Shown in pieces: positions 29,189-31,572 of a stretch of 64,000 nt of DNA. Made by a program: the position numbers and the translations under genes. The stretch's first letter is position 1. The number at the start of each line of letters is the position of its first letter. This DNA comes from an uncultured Candidatus Saccharibacteria bacterium (GTDB taxonomy: Bacteria > Patescibacteriota > UBA1384 > DTJR01), in assembly GCA_964473025.1 (NCBI GenBank), contig CAYYMZ010000001.1, forward strand, positions 24,163 through 88,162, read 5' to 3'. The notes under the pieces are model-generated. The model ran no database searches. It was not told where the DNA came from and saw only the letters and a program-made list of their open reading frames with translations.

Positions 29189-29359
29189 ATTGTCTCCTCG
29201 CCATATTATTATTAAAAAATCTGTGGTTGGGATTCGGTCACCTGTTCTTGCCTGCTGGCAAGCCAGTCGACCCCATCTCGCCCAGCCAAGCTGGGCTGCG
29301 GCCTTCGAATCCGTCCACGCCAGTGCCCAGGCATCAAGGCAAGCTTGATGCATGCGCTC

Positions 29360-29449
29360 TGGCGGAGAGGGTGGGATTCGAACCCACGGAACCCTTGCGG
29401 GCTCAACACATTAGCAGTGTGCTGCTATCGACCACTCAGCCACCTCTCC
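29360..29449 (-). tRNA. tRNA-Ser (anticodon GCU)
   Basis: 90 nt, class II long variable arm, 5' GGAGAGG acceptor, anticodon loop CUGCUAA, T-loop GGTTCGAATCC, encoded CCA. Confidence 0.9.
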
Positions 29450-29555
29450 ACGATTTACAAAAACAACCTGATTTTAAACCTTCTGCGGACCTCCACTTCT
29501 GTAAACTATATCAAAATATGCGGCAACTTCAATAAATAAAACCTTCTAGTACAAT

Positions 29556-30707
29556 ATGGTTATGTCACGAAATCAAATCGCCCTTATTATTTTCTTCTTT
29601 TCACTTTTGGTTTTTATTTTATTTGCCCAGAAAACTTATCAGTATATGAGCTATTTCGTGCCTTTGGCTGATGCGATTTTGCACGGACGCATCGATGTTA
29701 GCCAAACAGGAGCGATGAATGAACTTGTGCCTTACGCCGGTAAATGGTTTGTGGTTTATCCGCCGATGCCGGCCATCGCCGTTTTACCGTTCGTTTTAAT
29801 CTGGGGGATAGGGTTTAACCAAGTAATTGCCTCGGTTGTATTTGCCGCTGCCGCCGTTGCCCTATTTTTTATCCTCACCACTAAATTCACCAAAAAATTA
29901 TGGGTTAGCTTGGCACTAACGGCGCTTTTGGCGTTTGGCACGAACTTTTTTTACACTTCGCTGATCGGCTCCTCTTGGTATATTGCCCATATTTTAGCGG
30001 TTTTCTTTTTAATTTGCGCCCTCCTTATGTCAATTAACAAAAAGCCGTTTTTGGGGGGTTTATTTTTATCTTTTGCTTTCCTGTCGCGCCTGCCAACAGC
30101 TCTGGCTTTCCCGATTCTGCTCTATTTTTTGCTTTCGAAGAGCAAAACCCGCTTCAAAATACTCTTTTGGTTCGCTCTGCCGATCGTCTCTGCTATAATT
30201 ATATTTGCACTATATAACGCACTGCGCTTCGGATCGATAACCCAGACCGGCTATTCGCTAATACTAGGGGTTTTACAAGAGCCGTGGTATCAAGAGGGGA
30301 TTTTTAATCTAAACTACATTCCGCGCCAACTGAATGCTCTGTTTTTGGTTTTACCTAAAATCACCAATAGCTTCCCTTACTTCCTACCATCTAGTGTTGG
30401 TATGGCATTATGGATAACAACGCCCGCTTTGTTGTTGCTGTTTTTGATTAAATTTAAAGATAAGGCCGTCGGGTGGTTCTTGCTGACCGCATTGCTCGTG
30501 GCAATTCCCAGTTTGATTCACGGCACGGTCGGATTTACCCAGTTCGGCTATCGTTTTTCTCTTGATTACATCCTGTTTTTACTGATTCCGCTCATTTTTG
30601 TGTTTGAGCGGATAGGCAAGTGGTGGACTTGGATTTTTGTCTCTTTAAGCATCGCTATCAATCTCTGGGTTGTAATTTTATTTTACTTGCACATTTTTTC
30701 AACGTAA
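29556..30707 (+). CDS. polytopic membrane protein (~11 TM), putative GT-C-type glycosyltransferase
   Basis: 383 aa almost entirely hydrophobic helices; no diagnostic motif. Confidence 0.4.
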   Translation: MVMSRNQIALIIFFFSLLVFILFAQKTYQYMSYFVPLADAILHGRIDVSQTGAMNELVPYAGKWFVVYPPMPAIAVLPFVLIWGIGFNQVIASVVFAAAAVALFFILTTKFTKKLWVSLALTALLAFGTNFFYTSLIGSSWYIAHILAVFFLICALLMSINKKPFLGGLFLSFAFLSRLPTALAFPILLYFLLSKSKTRFKILFWFALPIVSAIIIFALYNALRFGSITQTGYSLILGVLQEPWYQEGIFNLNYIPRQLNALFLVLPKITNSFPYFLPSSVGMALWITTPALLLLFLIKFKDKAVGWFLLTALLVAIPSLIHGTVGFTQFGYRFSLDYILFLLIPLIFVFERIGKWWTWIFVSLSIAINLWVVILFYLHIFST

Positions 30708-30747
30708 GATTGAATTTAGGGTGGTTTTAGAGTAGGATTATGGTCTT

Positions 30748-30822
30748 GCTCCCGTAGTTCAACGGATAGAATGTGGGCTTCCGGAGCCTATGATGTGGGT
30801 TCGATTCCCGCCGGGAGTACCA
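30748..30822 (+). tRNA. tRNA-Arg (anticodon CCG)
   Basis: 75 nt cloverleaf: acceptor GCTCCCG/CGGGAGT, anticodon stem TGGGC/GCCTA with loop TTCCGGA, T-arm GTGGG-TTCGATT-CCCGC, CCA encoded. Confidence 0.85.
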
Positions 30823-31023
30823 CTTCGCTAGGCTCAGTGTAAACTTAGAAAAGTGAAGGAAAGAAAGCTTGCTCTGAGGAGCAAAGCGACGATGAGCGCC
30901 CGTAGCTCCCTCCTTCAGACTCACCGTCAAATCTATTTCATAGTATTATGACGGTGTGTCTTACGGCGGGCAGGCAGCTGGATATTGGTCTGCTGACTAA
31001 TTGCCTGGGAGAATTTACAGTAT

Positions 31024-31099
31024 GTGCCTGTAGCTCAGTGGATAGAGCGCTGGTTTGCGGAACCAGAGGTCGGAGGTTCAAATCCTCCCAGGCATACCA
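31024..31099 (+). tRNA. tRNA-Arg (anticodon GCG as read from gene)
   Basis: 76 nt, GTAGCTCAGTGGATAGAGC D-arm, anticodon stem CTGGT/ACCAG loop TTGCGGA, T-arm GGAGG-TTCAAAT-CCTCC, CCA encoded. Confidence 0.85.
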
Positions 31100-31235
31100 T
31101 AAAAGATGTCGGCTGAAGTTTATCCGTCTCTGGCGGAGAGCCGAATCAAACCCTGCCTGCCCCTCGTAGCCAAAGGCGAAGTGGGGTCGGGCGTACCATT
31201 CGACTTGAACCGGCAACTTGTTTTTGTAAAAGAAA

Positions 31236-31268
31236 GGGCCTTACCACGCGTGCGGTAAGGCCCTTTTG
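31236..31268. terminator. bidirectional rho-independent terminator
   Basis: GGGCCTTACC-acgcgtgc-GGTAAGGCCC 10-bp stem followed by TTTTG on plus strand and TTTCTTTT on minus strand. Confidence 0.7.
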
Positions 31269-31289
31269 CTGTCCTGTCACGGTCTGCAC

Positions 31290-31532
31290 CTAGCAGACCG
31301 TCTCGGGGATATTGTCCGTGCCCTCCATGCACGGATCGCCGTCAGCCCTATGGTGCTTGAGCAGTCGCCAACTGAGAGCTTCATCTCCAGTGCAAGTGAG
31401 ATGATCCCCCACCGAGTCGAAGCCGCCGTGGTTTGCGGCTTGCTCGAGCTCCCGATCTTCCGCTCTTCGCAGCGGAAGGTCTGACTGATTGCAGAATCCA
31501 CAGGTTCCCTTCTTGCTTTCCGCTCCGGCCAT
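31290..31532 (-). CDS. small Cys-containing hypothetical protein (80 aa) in GC-rich islet
   Basis: strong SD AAGGAGGG 7 nt upstream of ATG; ends just before bidirectional terminator; GC-rich unlike neighbours. Confidence 0.5.
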   Translation of the reverse strand: MAGAESKKGTCGFCNQSDLPLRRAEDRELEQAANHGGFDSVGDHLTCTGDEALSWRLLKHHRADGDPCMEGTDNIPETVC

Positions 31533-31572
31533 ATTATCACCCTCCTTGGTATTTGGACAAGCGAAACATCAA

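What the first reader, a model, noticed from the sequence alone, without database searches (positions are those of the whole stretch)
29212..31560. GC-rich insertions cluster at tRNA genes
Three of the four tRNAs have a GC-rich block nearby: tRNA-Ser(GCU) and tRNA-Arg(GCG) at their 3' ends (29212-29350; 31100-31560), and tRNA-Ser(UGA) within ~110 nt of its 5' end (42900-43740). Together with islets at 13.7, 34.7, 48.5 and 53.9 kb, each with its own promoter/terminator punctuation, the window looks like an AT-rich small genome repeatedly receiving short high-GC DNA at tRNA hotspots. No integrase remains except housekeeping XerC.
Basis: inference. Interest (0 to 1): 0.6.

Follow-up and report, generated by a model that had tools for sequence, protein, structure and literature searches.

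The report
GC-rich islets: mixed origins, tRNA-end element
The GC-rich patches in this small AT-rich bacterial genome are real but are three different things: old foreign-looking genes, a newly noticed folded element stuck to the ends of tRNA genes, and a likely large non-coding RNA. Together they are not a series of recent insertions at tRNA hotspots.

Summary
The GC-rich blocks exist where stated (55-60% GC against about 42%). Contigs from at least 8 other samples match at 99.9-100%, so they are not assembly chimeras.

They are heterogeneous:
- **tRNA-end element.** 29218-29321(-), just 3' of tRNA-Ser(GCU), is a ~100-nt Y-shaped structured element. Six instances were found in this Patescibacteria clade, each directly 3' of a tRNA. 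Each ends in a copy of that tRNA's last ~21 nt, starting in the T-loop, which is the footprint of site-specific integration. Covariation supports the fold. A decayed copy follows tRNA-Arg(GCG).
- **Coding islets.** Those at 13.7, 34.7, 42.9, 48.5, 50.8 and 54.8 kb hold genes of foreign-like composition. They are orphan or nearly so and evolve 3-5 times faster than host genes. All sit at the same positions in the sister species, with host-like synonymous divergence. Two are inactivated here.
- **Non-coding stretch.** 53.9-54.7 kb is a conserved non-coding stretch, a candidate large RNA.

Only the tRNA-Arg locus is a demonstrable hotspot: the tRNA gene was replaced, an orphan 80-aa cassette lies beside it, and the sister species has a 6-kb serine-recombinase element there. 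Enrichment of islets at tRNAs is weak (odds ratio 1.2-3.2).

The parts
29360..29449 (-). tRNA-Ser(GCU); the Y-shaped element lies directly 3' of it
   Evidence: ARAGORN, Rfam tRNA 61 bits
29322..29359 (-). Short spacer with an 8-bp hairpin (GCATCAAG/CTTGATGC) between the tRNA and the Y-shaped element. All six instances have a 35-47-nt hairpin spacer here.
   Evidence: sequence
29218..29321 (-). Y-shaped (three-way junction) structured element. P1 is a long basal stem. J1/2 reads GAAGG (GAAAG in relatives). P2 is a hairpin, followed by CGAGAUGGGGUCG and a P3/P4 hairpin with loop AGCA.
   Evidence: Covariance-model hit of 85.5 bits, E about 1e-20. The MFE fold gives the same architecture. Covariation over 6 instances.
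29219..29239 (-). 3' strand of P1: a degenerate copy (13 of 21) of the tRNA-Ser 3' end, from the T-loop onward, preceded by the conserved GTGAC. Relatives carry 19-21 of 21 identical copies, some including CCA.
30748..30822 (+). tRNA-Arg(CCG)
30896..30908 (+). 13-nt exact remnant of the 5' end of the sister-species-type tRNA-Arg(GCG) (GCGCCCGTAGCTC). It lies inside a 201-nt spacer that is only 8 nt long in the sister species.
   Evidence: Local alignment against shuffles, p<0.004; synteny
31002..31016 (-). Inverted 15-nt copy (14 of 15) of the T-stem/acceptor 3' strand of tRNA-Arg(GCG), 7 nt upstream of that tRNA
   Evidence: blastn-short
31024..31099 (+). tRNA-Arg(GCG), replacement allele. 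It is 94-97% identical to distant relatives L024 and L029 but only 82% to sister species L021.
31131..31198 (+). Decayed Arg(GCG)-type Y-shaped element with an internal deletion (GGCGAAGTGGGGTCG fused to GGCGTACCA). It ends in the last 13 nt of the old-type tRNA-Arg(GCG), at 31186-31198.
   Evidence: Comparison with the intact Arg(GCG) element in L230; 13-nt exact match, p about 0.003. It is not detected by the covariance model.
31238..31272 (.). GC-rich hairpin flanked by T runs, likely a bidirectional terminator
   Evidence: read by eye from the sequence; not listed by the consensus terminator scan
31290..31532 (-). 80-aa orphan ORF with an AAGGAGG ribosome-binding site and promoter-like sites at 31533-31601. 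It is the only islet absent from the sister species.
   Evidence: No homologue among 5.8 billion clusters. The sister species has a 5.95-kb element here instead.
42705..42794 (-). tRNA-Ser(UGA)
42917..43732 (+). MobA-like NTP-transferase gene, GC-rich, divergent from the tRNA. It has an in-frame TGA at 43013-43015 where the sister species has Trp, so it is probably a pseudogene. Its own terminator is at 43741-43772.
   Evidence: The stop codon is present in independent assemblies.
13720..15294 (+). GC-rich two-gene module: a 304-aa protein of unknown family plus a HAD-like hydrolase that is frameshifted here. It sits in front of an RmlD-like epimerase inside a polysaccharide cluster.
34706..35290 (-). 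GC-rich 194-aa ORF, shared with the sister species (63% identity, dN/dS 0.23)
48582..50102 (-). GC-rich unit of three orphan ORFs (281, 151 and 65 aa), of which the two larger look hydrophobic by eye, with a terminator at 48525-48546
50857..51683 (-). GC-rich unit of two ORFs (179 and 76 aa), with a promoter at 51737-51765 and a terminator at 50831-50854
54820..55626 (-). GC-rich unit of two ORFs (162-aa zinc-ribbon-like and 97 aa), with a promoter at 55667-55695
53892..54695 (-). Conserved GC-rich non-coding stretch, a candidate ~800-nt RNA (strand uncertain). A promoter-like site at 54701-54729(-) and a terminator at 53892-53909(-) frame it.
   Evidence: 72-90% identity to L032 with small indels and no 3-periodicity. 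The ORFs tested there (one fully inside, one just upstream of the stretch) have dN/dS 0.8-0.9. No Rfam hit.

Best explanation
The GC-rich blocks are real but are three different things.

**(A) A Y-shaped element at tRNA 3' ends.** The block at the 3' end of tRNA-Ser(GCU) belongs to a small family of ~100-nt elements. A decayed remnant sits after tRNA-Arg(GCG). The family is found only directly 3' of tRNA genes in this Patescibacteria clade.
- Each copy ends with a duplicate of its tRNA's last ~21 nt. The duplicate starts inside the T-loop and is preceded by an invariant GTGAC. This is the footprint a site-specific (tyrosine-type) recombinase leaves when DNA integrates into a tRNA T-loop.
- The insert carries no gene. 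I read it as a miniature, integrase-less integrative element (or its att remnant), whose single strand folds so that an inverted 5' arm pairs with the tRNA-end copy.
- Shown: the repeats, the fold, the covariation and the patchy distribution. Inferred: recombinase-mediated insertion and mobility.

**(B) Accessory protein genes.** The kilobase-sized islets are genes with a GC-rich, foreign-like composition, most simply acquired by horizontal transfer from unknown GC-richer donors.
- They were acquired before the split from the sister species and inherited vertically since.
- They evolve 3-5 times faster than host genes, and two are inactivated in this lineage.

**(C) One real hotspot.** Only the tRNA-Arg locus has been remodelled recently: the old tRNA-Arg(GCG) was broken and replaced, and an orphan 80-aa cassette lies beside it.

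Clustering of islets at tRNAs is at most a weak tendency.
For: **(A) The Y-shaped element**
- A covariance model built from 4 copies finds 6 distinct copies. Two were not in the seed (76.8 and 59.7 bits).
- All six lie 35-47 nt 3' of a tRNA, on its strand (Ser-GCU three times, Ser-UGA, Arg-CCG, Arg-GCG). No others were found in 1.19 Mb of relatives' loci.
- The distal repeats of the tRNA 3' end are 21/21 in L230, L024 and L042, 19/21 in L021, 13/21 in the window and 14/21 (by the same 21-mer scoring) in L029. All start at T-loop position C56.
- Covariation: 92% of cells are paired, 13 of 29 pairs change on both sides, 0 of 500 shuffles reach this, and slid controls give 31-48%.
- Each sequence alone folds into the same three-way junction.
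- The same tRNA genes lack the element in other relatives, so it has been gained and lost.
- L029 carries a second partial GTGACCGAATCCC...CCTCTCCGCCA copy in tandem.
- Phage Ms6 provides a precedent: its 26-bp attP core equals the tRNA-Ala 3' end including the T-loop (PMC1762012).

**(B) The coding islets**
- Codon-position GC differs from host genes.
- dN/dS is 0.15-0.41 against 0.01-0.13 for host genes.
- The islets sit at the same positions in the sister species, at 70-76% nucleotide identity against 80-85% for the flanks.
- Four-fold-site identity is equal for island and host genes, 0.534 against 0.527.
- They are orphan or nearly so.
- One gene has a nonsense mutation and one a frameshift.
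- Genomic islands covering up to 13% of the genome are already reported in Patescibacteria (PMC12455944).

**(C) The tRNA-Arg locus**
- 13-nt end fragments of the old tRNA remain.
- The sister species has a 5.95-kb element with a 568-aa serine recombinase at the same place.
Against: **(A)**
- No integrase, free circular form or clean empty-site pair was found. Three scans of viral contigs gave nothing.
- The structure is conserved with compensatory changes between orthologous copies in lineages whose synonymous sites are saturated. An inert scar would not behave like that. An invariant G.U pair points to the tRNA-sense strand. Together these favour a function as RNA, or as folded single-stranded DNA.
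- There are only 6 copies, and the alignment was fitted to the model.

**(B)**
- No donor was identified.
- The GC excess at four-fold sites is only 0.69 against 0.57, so much of the signal comes from amino-acid composition.
- Promoters are AT-rich and host-like.
- GC-rich fill occupies the same slots in several relatives but with different genes. Simple one-off transfer does not explain this.
Confidence: 0.55

Rival explanations
1. One reading: the genome repeatedly and recently receives short pieces of high-GC DNA at tRNA hotspots, and the integrases have since been lost.
For: Foreign-like composition. Two or three of the 3 tRNA loci have a GC-rich neighbour. The interval test gives odds ratio 3.2, p=0.023. 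The tRNA-Arg locus is variable. att-type repeats are present.
Against: All coding islets except the 80-aa cassette are shared in position with the sister species and show host-like synonymous divergence. Six of 8 islets are not at tRNAs. The junction test gives odds ratio 1.2, p=0.40. No tRNA-fragment repeats flank the coding islets. The 13.7-kb islet is part of a conserved operon-like module. The islet near tRNA-Ser(UGA) lies on the tRNA's 5' side.
Confidence: 0.12
2. The Y-shaped element is a host-functional structured RNA in the tRNA 3' trailer, or a separate small RNA. It arose by duplication of the tRNA end and acts through its antisense arm to the tRNA 3' end, for example in tRNA processing, decoy or regulatory roles. 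It is not a mobile DNA element.
For: Compensatory changes between orthologous copies are kept over saturated neutral divergence. An invariant G.U pair fixes the folded strand as the tRNA-sense strand. P1 co-evolves where the distal copy has drifted from the tRNA, in L029 and the window. Junction sequences GAAAGCC and GAGGCGGGGTCG are conserved.
Against: Distribution over four different tRNA genes and lineages is patchy, with absence at orthologous tRNAs. Perfect 21-nt direct repeats begin exactly in the T-loop, as in integrase att sites. A tandem partial copy exists in L029. In L029 and L024 the spacer hairpin looks like a terminator, which would separate the element from the tRNA transcript. 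There is no Rfam family.
Confidence: 0.28
3. The coding islets are native, fast-evolving lineage-specific genes. Their GC-richness reflects amino-acid composition, or selection on codons or mRNA structure, rather than horizontal transfer.
For: Same slots and same orientation in several relatives. AT-rich, host-type promoters are conserved with the sister species. The excess at four-fold sites is modest, 0.69 against 0.57. Synonymous divergence equals that of host genes. The 304-aa/HAD pair is GC-elevated in three different AT-rich hosts.
Against: GC is raised at all three codon positions. There are no homologues outside the nearest relatives for most of them. Islets are absent from the same slots in L041. 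Pseudogenisation indicates they are dispensable.
Confidence: 0.2
4. The blocks are artefacts: assembly or binning chimeras joining reads from a GC-rich organism.
For: Sharp compositional boundaries in a metagenome-derived sequence.
Against: Independent assemblies from at least 8 samples and three data sources are 99.9-100% identical across the islet junctions. The islets are also present in the sister species.
Confidence: 0.01

Closest known systems
Integrase-mediated insertion into the T-loop of tRNA genes (for example mycobacteriophage Ms6, whose 26-bp attP core equals the tRNA-Ala 3' end; PMC1762012)
   Same: There is a direct repeat of the tRNA segment from the T-loop to the 3' end (21 nt, some copies with CCA). 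The functional tRNA is regenerated at one junction, and the displaced copy lies at the other.
   Different: The DNA between the repeats is only about 130-160 nt and carries no integrase or cargo. It includes an inverted copy of the core that pairs with the distal repeat in a conserved three-way junction. No recombinase is linked to it.
CIMEs, which are non-autonomous elements bounded by att sites and derived from integrative elements (from my own knowledge of the Streptococcus thermophilus ICESt1 literature; not checked here)
   Same: The insert is flanked by att-type repeats and lacks recombination genes. A tandem partial copy in L029 resembles site accretion.
   Different: CIMEs are kilobases long and are not known to have a conserved, covarying secondary structure. 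Mobilisation was not tested here.
Folded single-stranded attachment sites: the forked-hairpin attP of CTX phage used by XerCD, and integron attC (from my own knowledge; not checked here)
   Same: An inverted repeat folds into a stem that mimics the duplex target site, with branching hairpins on top. The fold is strand-specific, with an invariant G.U/G.T pair.
   Different: The target is a tRNA T-loop, not dif or attI. There are no phage genes, intI or cassette array. Whether the folded molecule is DNA or RNA is unknown.
Genomic islands of Patescibacteria/CPR (PMC12455944: hundreds of islands, up to 13% of genome length)
   Same: Compositionally atypical accessory genes make up 13.7% of the window.
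   Different: Here the islets are very small (1-3 genes) and GC-rich rather than AT-rich. They lack mobility genes, are fixed in position between sister species, and recur in the same intergenic slots with different genes in more distant relatives.

Membership tests
tRNA-targeted integrative element (tyrosine-integrase type, T-loop sublocation) | Direct repeat of the tRNA 3' segment bounding the insert | tested here: met
   For the Y-shaped element: 21/21 in L230, L024 and L042, 19/21 in L021 and 13/21 in the window, against a shuffle maximum of 13-15. Not met for the coding islets.
tRNA-targeted integrative element (tyrosine-integrase type, T-loop sublocation) | Integrase gene inside the element, next to the tRNA | tested here: not met
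   The insert has no ORF. The only tyrosine recombinase seen in the window is the conserved XerC/D-like gene at 56377-57321. The sister species has a serine recombinase at the tRNA-Arg locus, but no Y-shaped element there.
tRNA-targeted integrative element (tyrosine-integrase type, T-loop sublocation) | Presence/absence polymorphism at the same tRNA among relatives | tested here: met
   At tRNA-Ser(GCU) the element is present in the window, L021 and L042 and absent in L027, L029 and L024. At Ser(UGA) it is found only in L029, at Arg(CCG) only in L024, and at Arg(GCG) in L230 with a decayed copy in the window.
tRNA-targeted integrative element (tyrosine-integrase type, T-loop sublocation) | Excision or circular form, or a clean empty site | not testable with these tools
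   This needs raw reads. No orthologous empty site with matching flanks was found among the fetched loci.
Horizontally acquired genomic island | Composition atypical of the host | tested here: met
   GC1/GC2/GC3 of 0.62/0.44/0.68 against 0.47/0.35/0.44. GC at four-fold sites is 0.69 against 0.57.
Horizontally acquired genomic island | Patchy phyletic distribution, or absence from close relatives | tested here: inconclusive
   Present in the sister species at the same sites. Absent or replaced by other genes in relatives at 76-78% LeuRS identity. Homologues are very few.
Horizontally acquired genomic island | Mobility genes or flanking repeats | tested here: not met
   No integrase or transposase domains in island ORFs. 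No shared or flanking repeats.
Known structured RNA family (Rfam 15) | Match to a curated covariance model | tested here: not met
   Only tRNAs pass the gathering score. Nothing credible appears at E up to 5-10 in 28800-32000, 53800-55700 or 31590-31900.
Integron gene cassette / attC | intI integrase, arrays of promoterless cassettes, attC with R''/R' boxes | not tested
   No formal attC search was run. By inspection there is no intI among the ORFs scanned. The islets are scattered rather than arrayed and have their own promoters.

The most novel reading that the evidence does not exclude
The Y-shaped element may be a new kind of tRNA-end-directed genetic element or RNA. Its 5' arm is an antisense 'reader' of the last ~21 nt of a tRNA and changes with the tRNA it sits at: Ser and Arg versions exist. 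One reading is that it is the folded attachment site, or a guide, of a recombination system that can be retargeted to different tRNA genes by base-pairing. Another is that it is a previously undescribed class of tRNA-linked structured RNA in Patescibacteria. Separately, 53.9-54.7 kb may encode a new ~800-nt structured RNA.
Probability: 0.2. Interest if true: 0.8.

Novelty: new variant of a known kind. Interest (0 to 1): 0.5.

Why it matters
If the Y-shaped element is a gene-less mobile unit or folded attachment site, it would show how tRNA genes are used as landing pads in ultra-small, episymbiotic bacteria, in which few mobile elements are known. It would also provide a compact, sequence-defined target-recognition module. 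If it is instead an RNA, it is a new tRNA-linked structured RNA class.

The coding islets show that small Patescibacteria genomes keep a set of fast-evolving, compositionally foreign orphan genes in fixed intergenic slots for long periods. This is relevant to how these organisms vary their envelope and accessory functions.

For annotation, the practical lesson is that GC-rich patches in AT-rich genomes should not be read uniformly as recent insertions.

Tried and rejected
- **Assembly chimera.** Rejected: independent assemblies are identical.
- **Islets as copies of one repeat or mobile element.** Rejected: no shared direct or inverted repeats.
- **tRNA fragments at the edges of the coding islets.** Short matches are at chance level (E 1-15), apart from those at the two tRNA loci.
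- **29212-29353 as the N-terminus of ORF 28913-29353.** Rejected: public gene calls and the sister species start at the ATG at 29188, and the upstream part is not conserved as protein.
- **Known RNA families.** None found. An RNase P motif search was negative.
- **Free form of the element in viruses.** Three pattern scans of IMG/VR followed by model scoring gave nothing.
- **Amelioration paradox.** I considered arguing that GC3 of 0.7 could not survive saturated divergence. I dropped it after finding host four-fold sites at 0.57 GC, so the excess is only 0.12.
- **Close relatives in the species-representative genome set.** Only a 35%-identical, non-syntenic Woesebacteria hit.
- **Pfam on island ORFs.** Almost nothing: weak MobA-like and zinc-ribbon hits only.
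- **More copies of the 53.9-kb non-coding stretch.** nhmmer found only the sister species.
- **Decayed copy after tRNA-Arg(GCG).** It is not recovered by the covariance model. It rests on motif comparison with L230 alone.
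Full report
**1. The observation**

ARAGORN and Rfam find four tRNAs: Ser-GCU 29360-29449(-), Arg-CCG 30748-30822(+), Arg-GCG 31024-31099(+) and Ser-UGA 42705-42794(-).

The window is 44% GC overall. A two-state segmentation separates a 42% background from blocks at 54-62% GC, which make up 13.7% of the window. The blocks are 13779-15343, 29221-29452, 30773-31530, 34690-35210, 42878-43725, 48524-49835, 50832-51696 and 53955-55620, plus a few smaller ones.

The blocks are not assembly chimeras. Contigs from at least eight independent samples (ENA, Logan, JGI) are 99.9-100% identical to the window across 23.2-35.6 kb and 36.1-52.9 kb, islet junctions included.

The organism is a Patescibacteria (CPR) bacterium. 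The nearest labelled homologues are Berkelbacteria and Woesebacteria MAGs.

**2. The kilobase-sized islets are protein-coding genes of foreign-like composition**

ORFs inside the islets have GC1/GC2/GC3 of about 0.62/0.44/0.68. Host genes have about 0.47/0.35/0.44. The islets share no repeats with one another and have almost no Pfam matches. The only hits are a weak MobA-like NTP-transferase next to tRNA-Ser(UGA) and a weak zinc ribbon.

They are orphan or nearly so:
- The 281-aa membrane protein has one homologue among 1.84 billion representative proteins.
- The 80-aa ORF has none among 5.8 billion clusters.
- The 304-aa protein has 16.

The GC-richness is confined to coding sequence. The promoter region of the MobA-like gene is AT-rich and conserved with the sister species.

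**3. The islets are old, not recent**

I found a sister species with about 88% protein identity in three sets of loci: L021/L022, L032 and L017. These came from two other samples via homologues of a host glycosyltransferase, LeuRS and the 304-aa protein.

blastn shows collinearity. The islets at 13.7, 34.7, 42.9, 48.5, 50.8 and 53.9-55.6 kb lie at the same positions in the sister species. They match at 70-76% nucleotide identity, against 80-85% for flanking host genes.

| Measure | Island gene pairs | Host gene pairs |
|---|---|---|
| Protein identity | 42-67% (one at 85%) | about 88% |
| dN/dS | 0.15-0.41 | 0.01-0.13 |
| Identity at four-fold degenerate sites | 0.534 | 0.527 |

Because four-fold-site identity is the same for both classes, the islets have been diverging for as long as the host genes. 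They predate the split and were inherited vertically.

Two island genes are inactivated in the window lineage but intact in the sister species:
- The MobA-like gene has an in-frame TGA at 43013-43015 where the sister species has Trp. The stop is confirmed in independent assemblies.
- The HAD-like gene is frameshifted near 14800.

The 13.7-kb islet is not a stray insertion. The 304-aa gene, the HAD-like gene and an RmlD-like epimerase form a conserved three-gene module inside polysaccharide clusters. This holds in the sister species and in a distant relative with 42% identity. In all three AT-rich hosts the first two genes are GC-elevated: 59/55-60% against 40%, 57/55% against 41%, and 49/51% against 38%.

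**4. More distant relatives**

A metagenome scan with LeuRS returned 80 loci. Relatives with 76-86% LeuRS identity have their own 57-64% GC islets. These occupy the same intergenic slots (TrpRS to p219, p219 to GroES, GroEL to p76), but lengths differ and the ORFs have no detectable homology to the window's. Other spacers are short and AT-rich.

L041 lacks the islets next to tRNA-Ser(UGA) and after GroEL: 44 nt in place of 1.1 kb, and 315 nt in place of 1.9 kb. LeuRS relatives below about 55% identity mostly have no islets.

So this is a clade-wide feature of recurrent slots filled with fast-turning-over GC-rich genes. Genomic islands covering up to 13% of the genome are already reported for Patescibacteria (PMC12455944).

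**5. Is there clustering at tRNAs?**

After masking the tRNAs themselves, I ran two tests:
- **Host-interval test.** In the window, 2 of 3 tRNA-bearing intervals hold an islet against 6 of 42 others (p=0.077). Over 21 clade loci the figures are 7/22 against 32/251 (odds ratio 3.2, p=0.023). Without the window, p=0.096. Orthologous slots are counted repeatedly.
- **Junction test.** Odds ratio 1.2, p=0.40.

This is at best a weak tendency. Most islets are not at tRNAs. The islet near tRNA-Ser(UGA) lies on the tRNA's 5' side, as a divergently transcribed gene.

**6. What sits at the 3' end of tRNA-Ser(GCU) (29212-29350)**

This block is not cargo DNA. Scanning every tRNA in the fetched loci for a downstream copy of its own 3' end gave a recurrent pattern. 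About 110-140 nt after the tRNA there is a copy of its last ~21 nt, in which the T-loop GTTCGA is replaced by GACCGA.

| Locus | tRNA | Match of distal copy to the tRNA 3' end |
|---|---|---|
| L021 | Ser-GCU | 19 of 21 |
| L042 | Ser-GCU | 19 of 21 by the scan register; 21 of 21 from T-loop C56, including CCA |
| L024 | Arg-CCG | 19 of 21 by the scan register; 21 of 21 from T-loop C56, including CCA |
| L029 | Ser-UGA | 14 of 21 |
| window | Ser-GCU | 13 of 21 (degenerate) |

The intervening sequences share motifs: GGGATTCGAAAGCCGG, GAGGCGGGGTCG and a hairpin with loop AGCA. They fold, each on its own, into the same three-way junction:
- P1 is a long basal stem. Its 3' strand is the tRNA-end copy and its 5' strand is the inverted complement of that copy.
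- P2 is a variable hairpin.
- P3/P4 is a long hairpin whose base, GGUCG/UGACC, is invariant.

A covariance model built from four copies recovers a fifth (L042, 76.8 bits) and a sixth (L230, 59.7 bits). The L230 copy follows a tRNA-Arg(GCG) and ends in a perfect 21-nt copy of that tRNA's 3' end. The model finds nothing else in 1.19 Mb of relatives' loci, nor elsewhere in the window with filters off.

Over the six copies, 92% of cells are paired and 13 of 29 pairs show changes on both sides. No shuffle out of 500 reaches this, and slid controls give 31-48% paired. An invariant G.U pair places the folded strand on the tRNA-sense strand.

Where the distal copy has drifted from the tRNA (L029, window), the 5' arm has changed with it.

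**7. How I read the element**

Perfect direct repeats that begin in the T-loop and run to the 3' end are the classical footprint of integrase-mediated insertion into tRNA genes. The 26-bp Ms6 attP core is a documented case (PMC1762012).

Three further points indicate gain and loss by recombination:
- The element is present or absent at the same tRNA gene in different relatives.
- It occurs at four different tRNA genes, in versions matched to each tRNA.
- L029 carries a second, partial GTGACCGAATCCC...CCTCTCCGCCA copy in tandem.

The insert has no gene, so I call it a miniature integrase-less integrative element, or its att remnant.

Against a mere scar: the structure is kept by compensatory change between orthologous copies in lineages whose neutral sites are saturated. 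The fold therefore has a function. That function could be as a recombination substrate, in the way folded single-stranded attachment sites work, or as an RNA. I cannot decide between these with the tools available. No free form was found in viral contigs, and no Rfam family matches.

**8. The tRNA-Arg locus (30748-31612) is a real hotspot**

In the sister species the two tRNA-Arg genes are 8 nt apart. They are followed by a 5.95-kb AT-rich element with a 568-aa serine recombinase, a Schlafen/AlbA-like gene and an HNH gene. Homology with the window resumes at 31613.

In the window:
- The two tRNAs are 201 nt apart.
- The tRNA-Arg(GCG) is a different allele: 82% identical to the sister species but 94-97% to distant relatives.
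- Exact 13-nt remnants of the sister-type tRNA survive on both sides, the 5' end at 30896-30908 and the 3' end at 31186-31198 (p about 0.003 each).
- The 3' remnant is the tail of a decayed Arg-type Y-shaped element at 31131-31198. Compared with the intact L230 copy, a deletion has fused GGGGTCG to GGCGTACCA.
- Next to it lies the only window-specific islet: an 80-aa orphan ORF with its own ribosome-binding site, promoter and terminator.

**9. The 53.9-kb islet is partly non-coding**

The stretch 53941-54760 aligns to the sister species at 72-90% identity, which locally exceeds groEL. It has frequent 1-2-nt indels and no three-base periodicity of mismatches. The two ORFs tested here (one inside the stretch, one just upstream of it) have dN/dS of 0.8-0.9.

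A promoter-like site at 54701-54729(-) and terminators frame an ~800-nt unit on the minus strand. The two-sequence consensus fold has lower energy on the minus strand: -294 against -258 kcal/mol, with 12 double-sided changes on either strand. There is no Rfam hit and no further homologue among the fetched loci. I treat it as a candidate large RNA, not as foreign DNA.

**10. Verdict**

The unifying interpretation, short high-GC DNA repeatedly landing at tRNA hotspots, holds only for the tRNA-Arg locus and, in a different sense, for the Y-shaped element.

The coding islets are best explained as old, horizontally acquired accessory genes that are fast-evolving and now partly decaying. A native-gene explanation is not excluded. 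The four-fold-site excess is modest (0.69 against 0.57) and promoters are host-like.

The most interesting result is the tRNA-end Y-shaped element. It is a new variant of tRNA-targeted integration, or possibly a new structured RNA class.

Noticed in passing
window 53892-54695 (strand uncertain, minus favoured): A GC-rich non-coding stretch of about 800 nt after groEL. It is 72-90% identical to the sister species, with small indels and no codon periodicity. A promoter-like site and terminators frame it. No Rfam match. It is a candidate large structured RNA.
   Followed up: partly
window 31613-31890 (+): A non-coding region conserved at 83% with the sister species (L021 from 17304). It starts at a promoter-like TAGTCA-18-TATAAT site and is followed by a GC-rich segment. 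It contains GCAAGCCAAGGCAGAG, which is reminiscent of the SRP RNA domain IV, but no Rfam family scores it.
   Followed up: partly
L021 11353-17303 / L022 11330-13036: At the tRNA-Arg(GCG) 3' end the sister species carries a 5.95-kb AT-rich element. It holds a 568-aa large serine recombinase and Schlafen/AlbA-like and HNH genes. No tRNA-end repeat was found at its far end.
   Followed up: partly
window 42917-43732 and 14658-15294: Two island genes are inactivated in this lineage but intact in the sister species. The MobA-like gene has an in-frame TGA where the sister species has Trp. The HAD-like gene is frameshifted.
   Followed up: yes
L029 5045-5105: A second, partial copy of the element's end (GTGACCGAATCCC...CCTCTCCGCCA, interrupted by a ~27-nt hairpin) lies in tandem about 30 nt after the first Y-shaped element at tRNA-Ser(UGA).
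   Followed up: partly
window 1-22000: A large polysaccharide biosynthesis cluster: a Wzt-like ABC ATPase, several methyltransferases, GT1/GT4 glycosyltransferases and epimerases. A similar ABC-transporter, methyltransferase and glycosyltransferase cluster, in which the 304-aa/HAD/epimerase module lies in the same order, is seen around it in a distant relative (L019).
   Followed up: partly
window, host genes generally: Host four-fold degenerate sites are 57% GC, although overall GC3 is 44% and intergenic DNA is 38.5%. The AT-richness of this genome therefore lies mainly in amino-acid choice and two-fold codons.
   Followed up: no
L230 3060-3332: In a relative with 85% glycosyltransferase identity, tRNA-Arg(GCG) and its Y-shaped element lie inverted directly after the glycosyltransferase gene, with no tRNA-Arg(CCG). 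This shows rearrangement around the locus.
   Followed up: no
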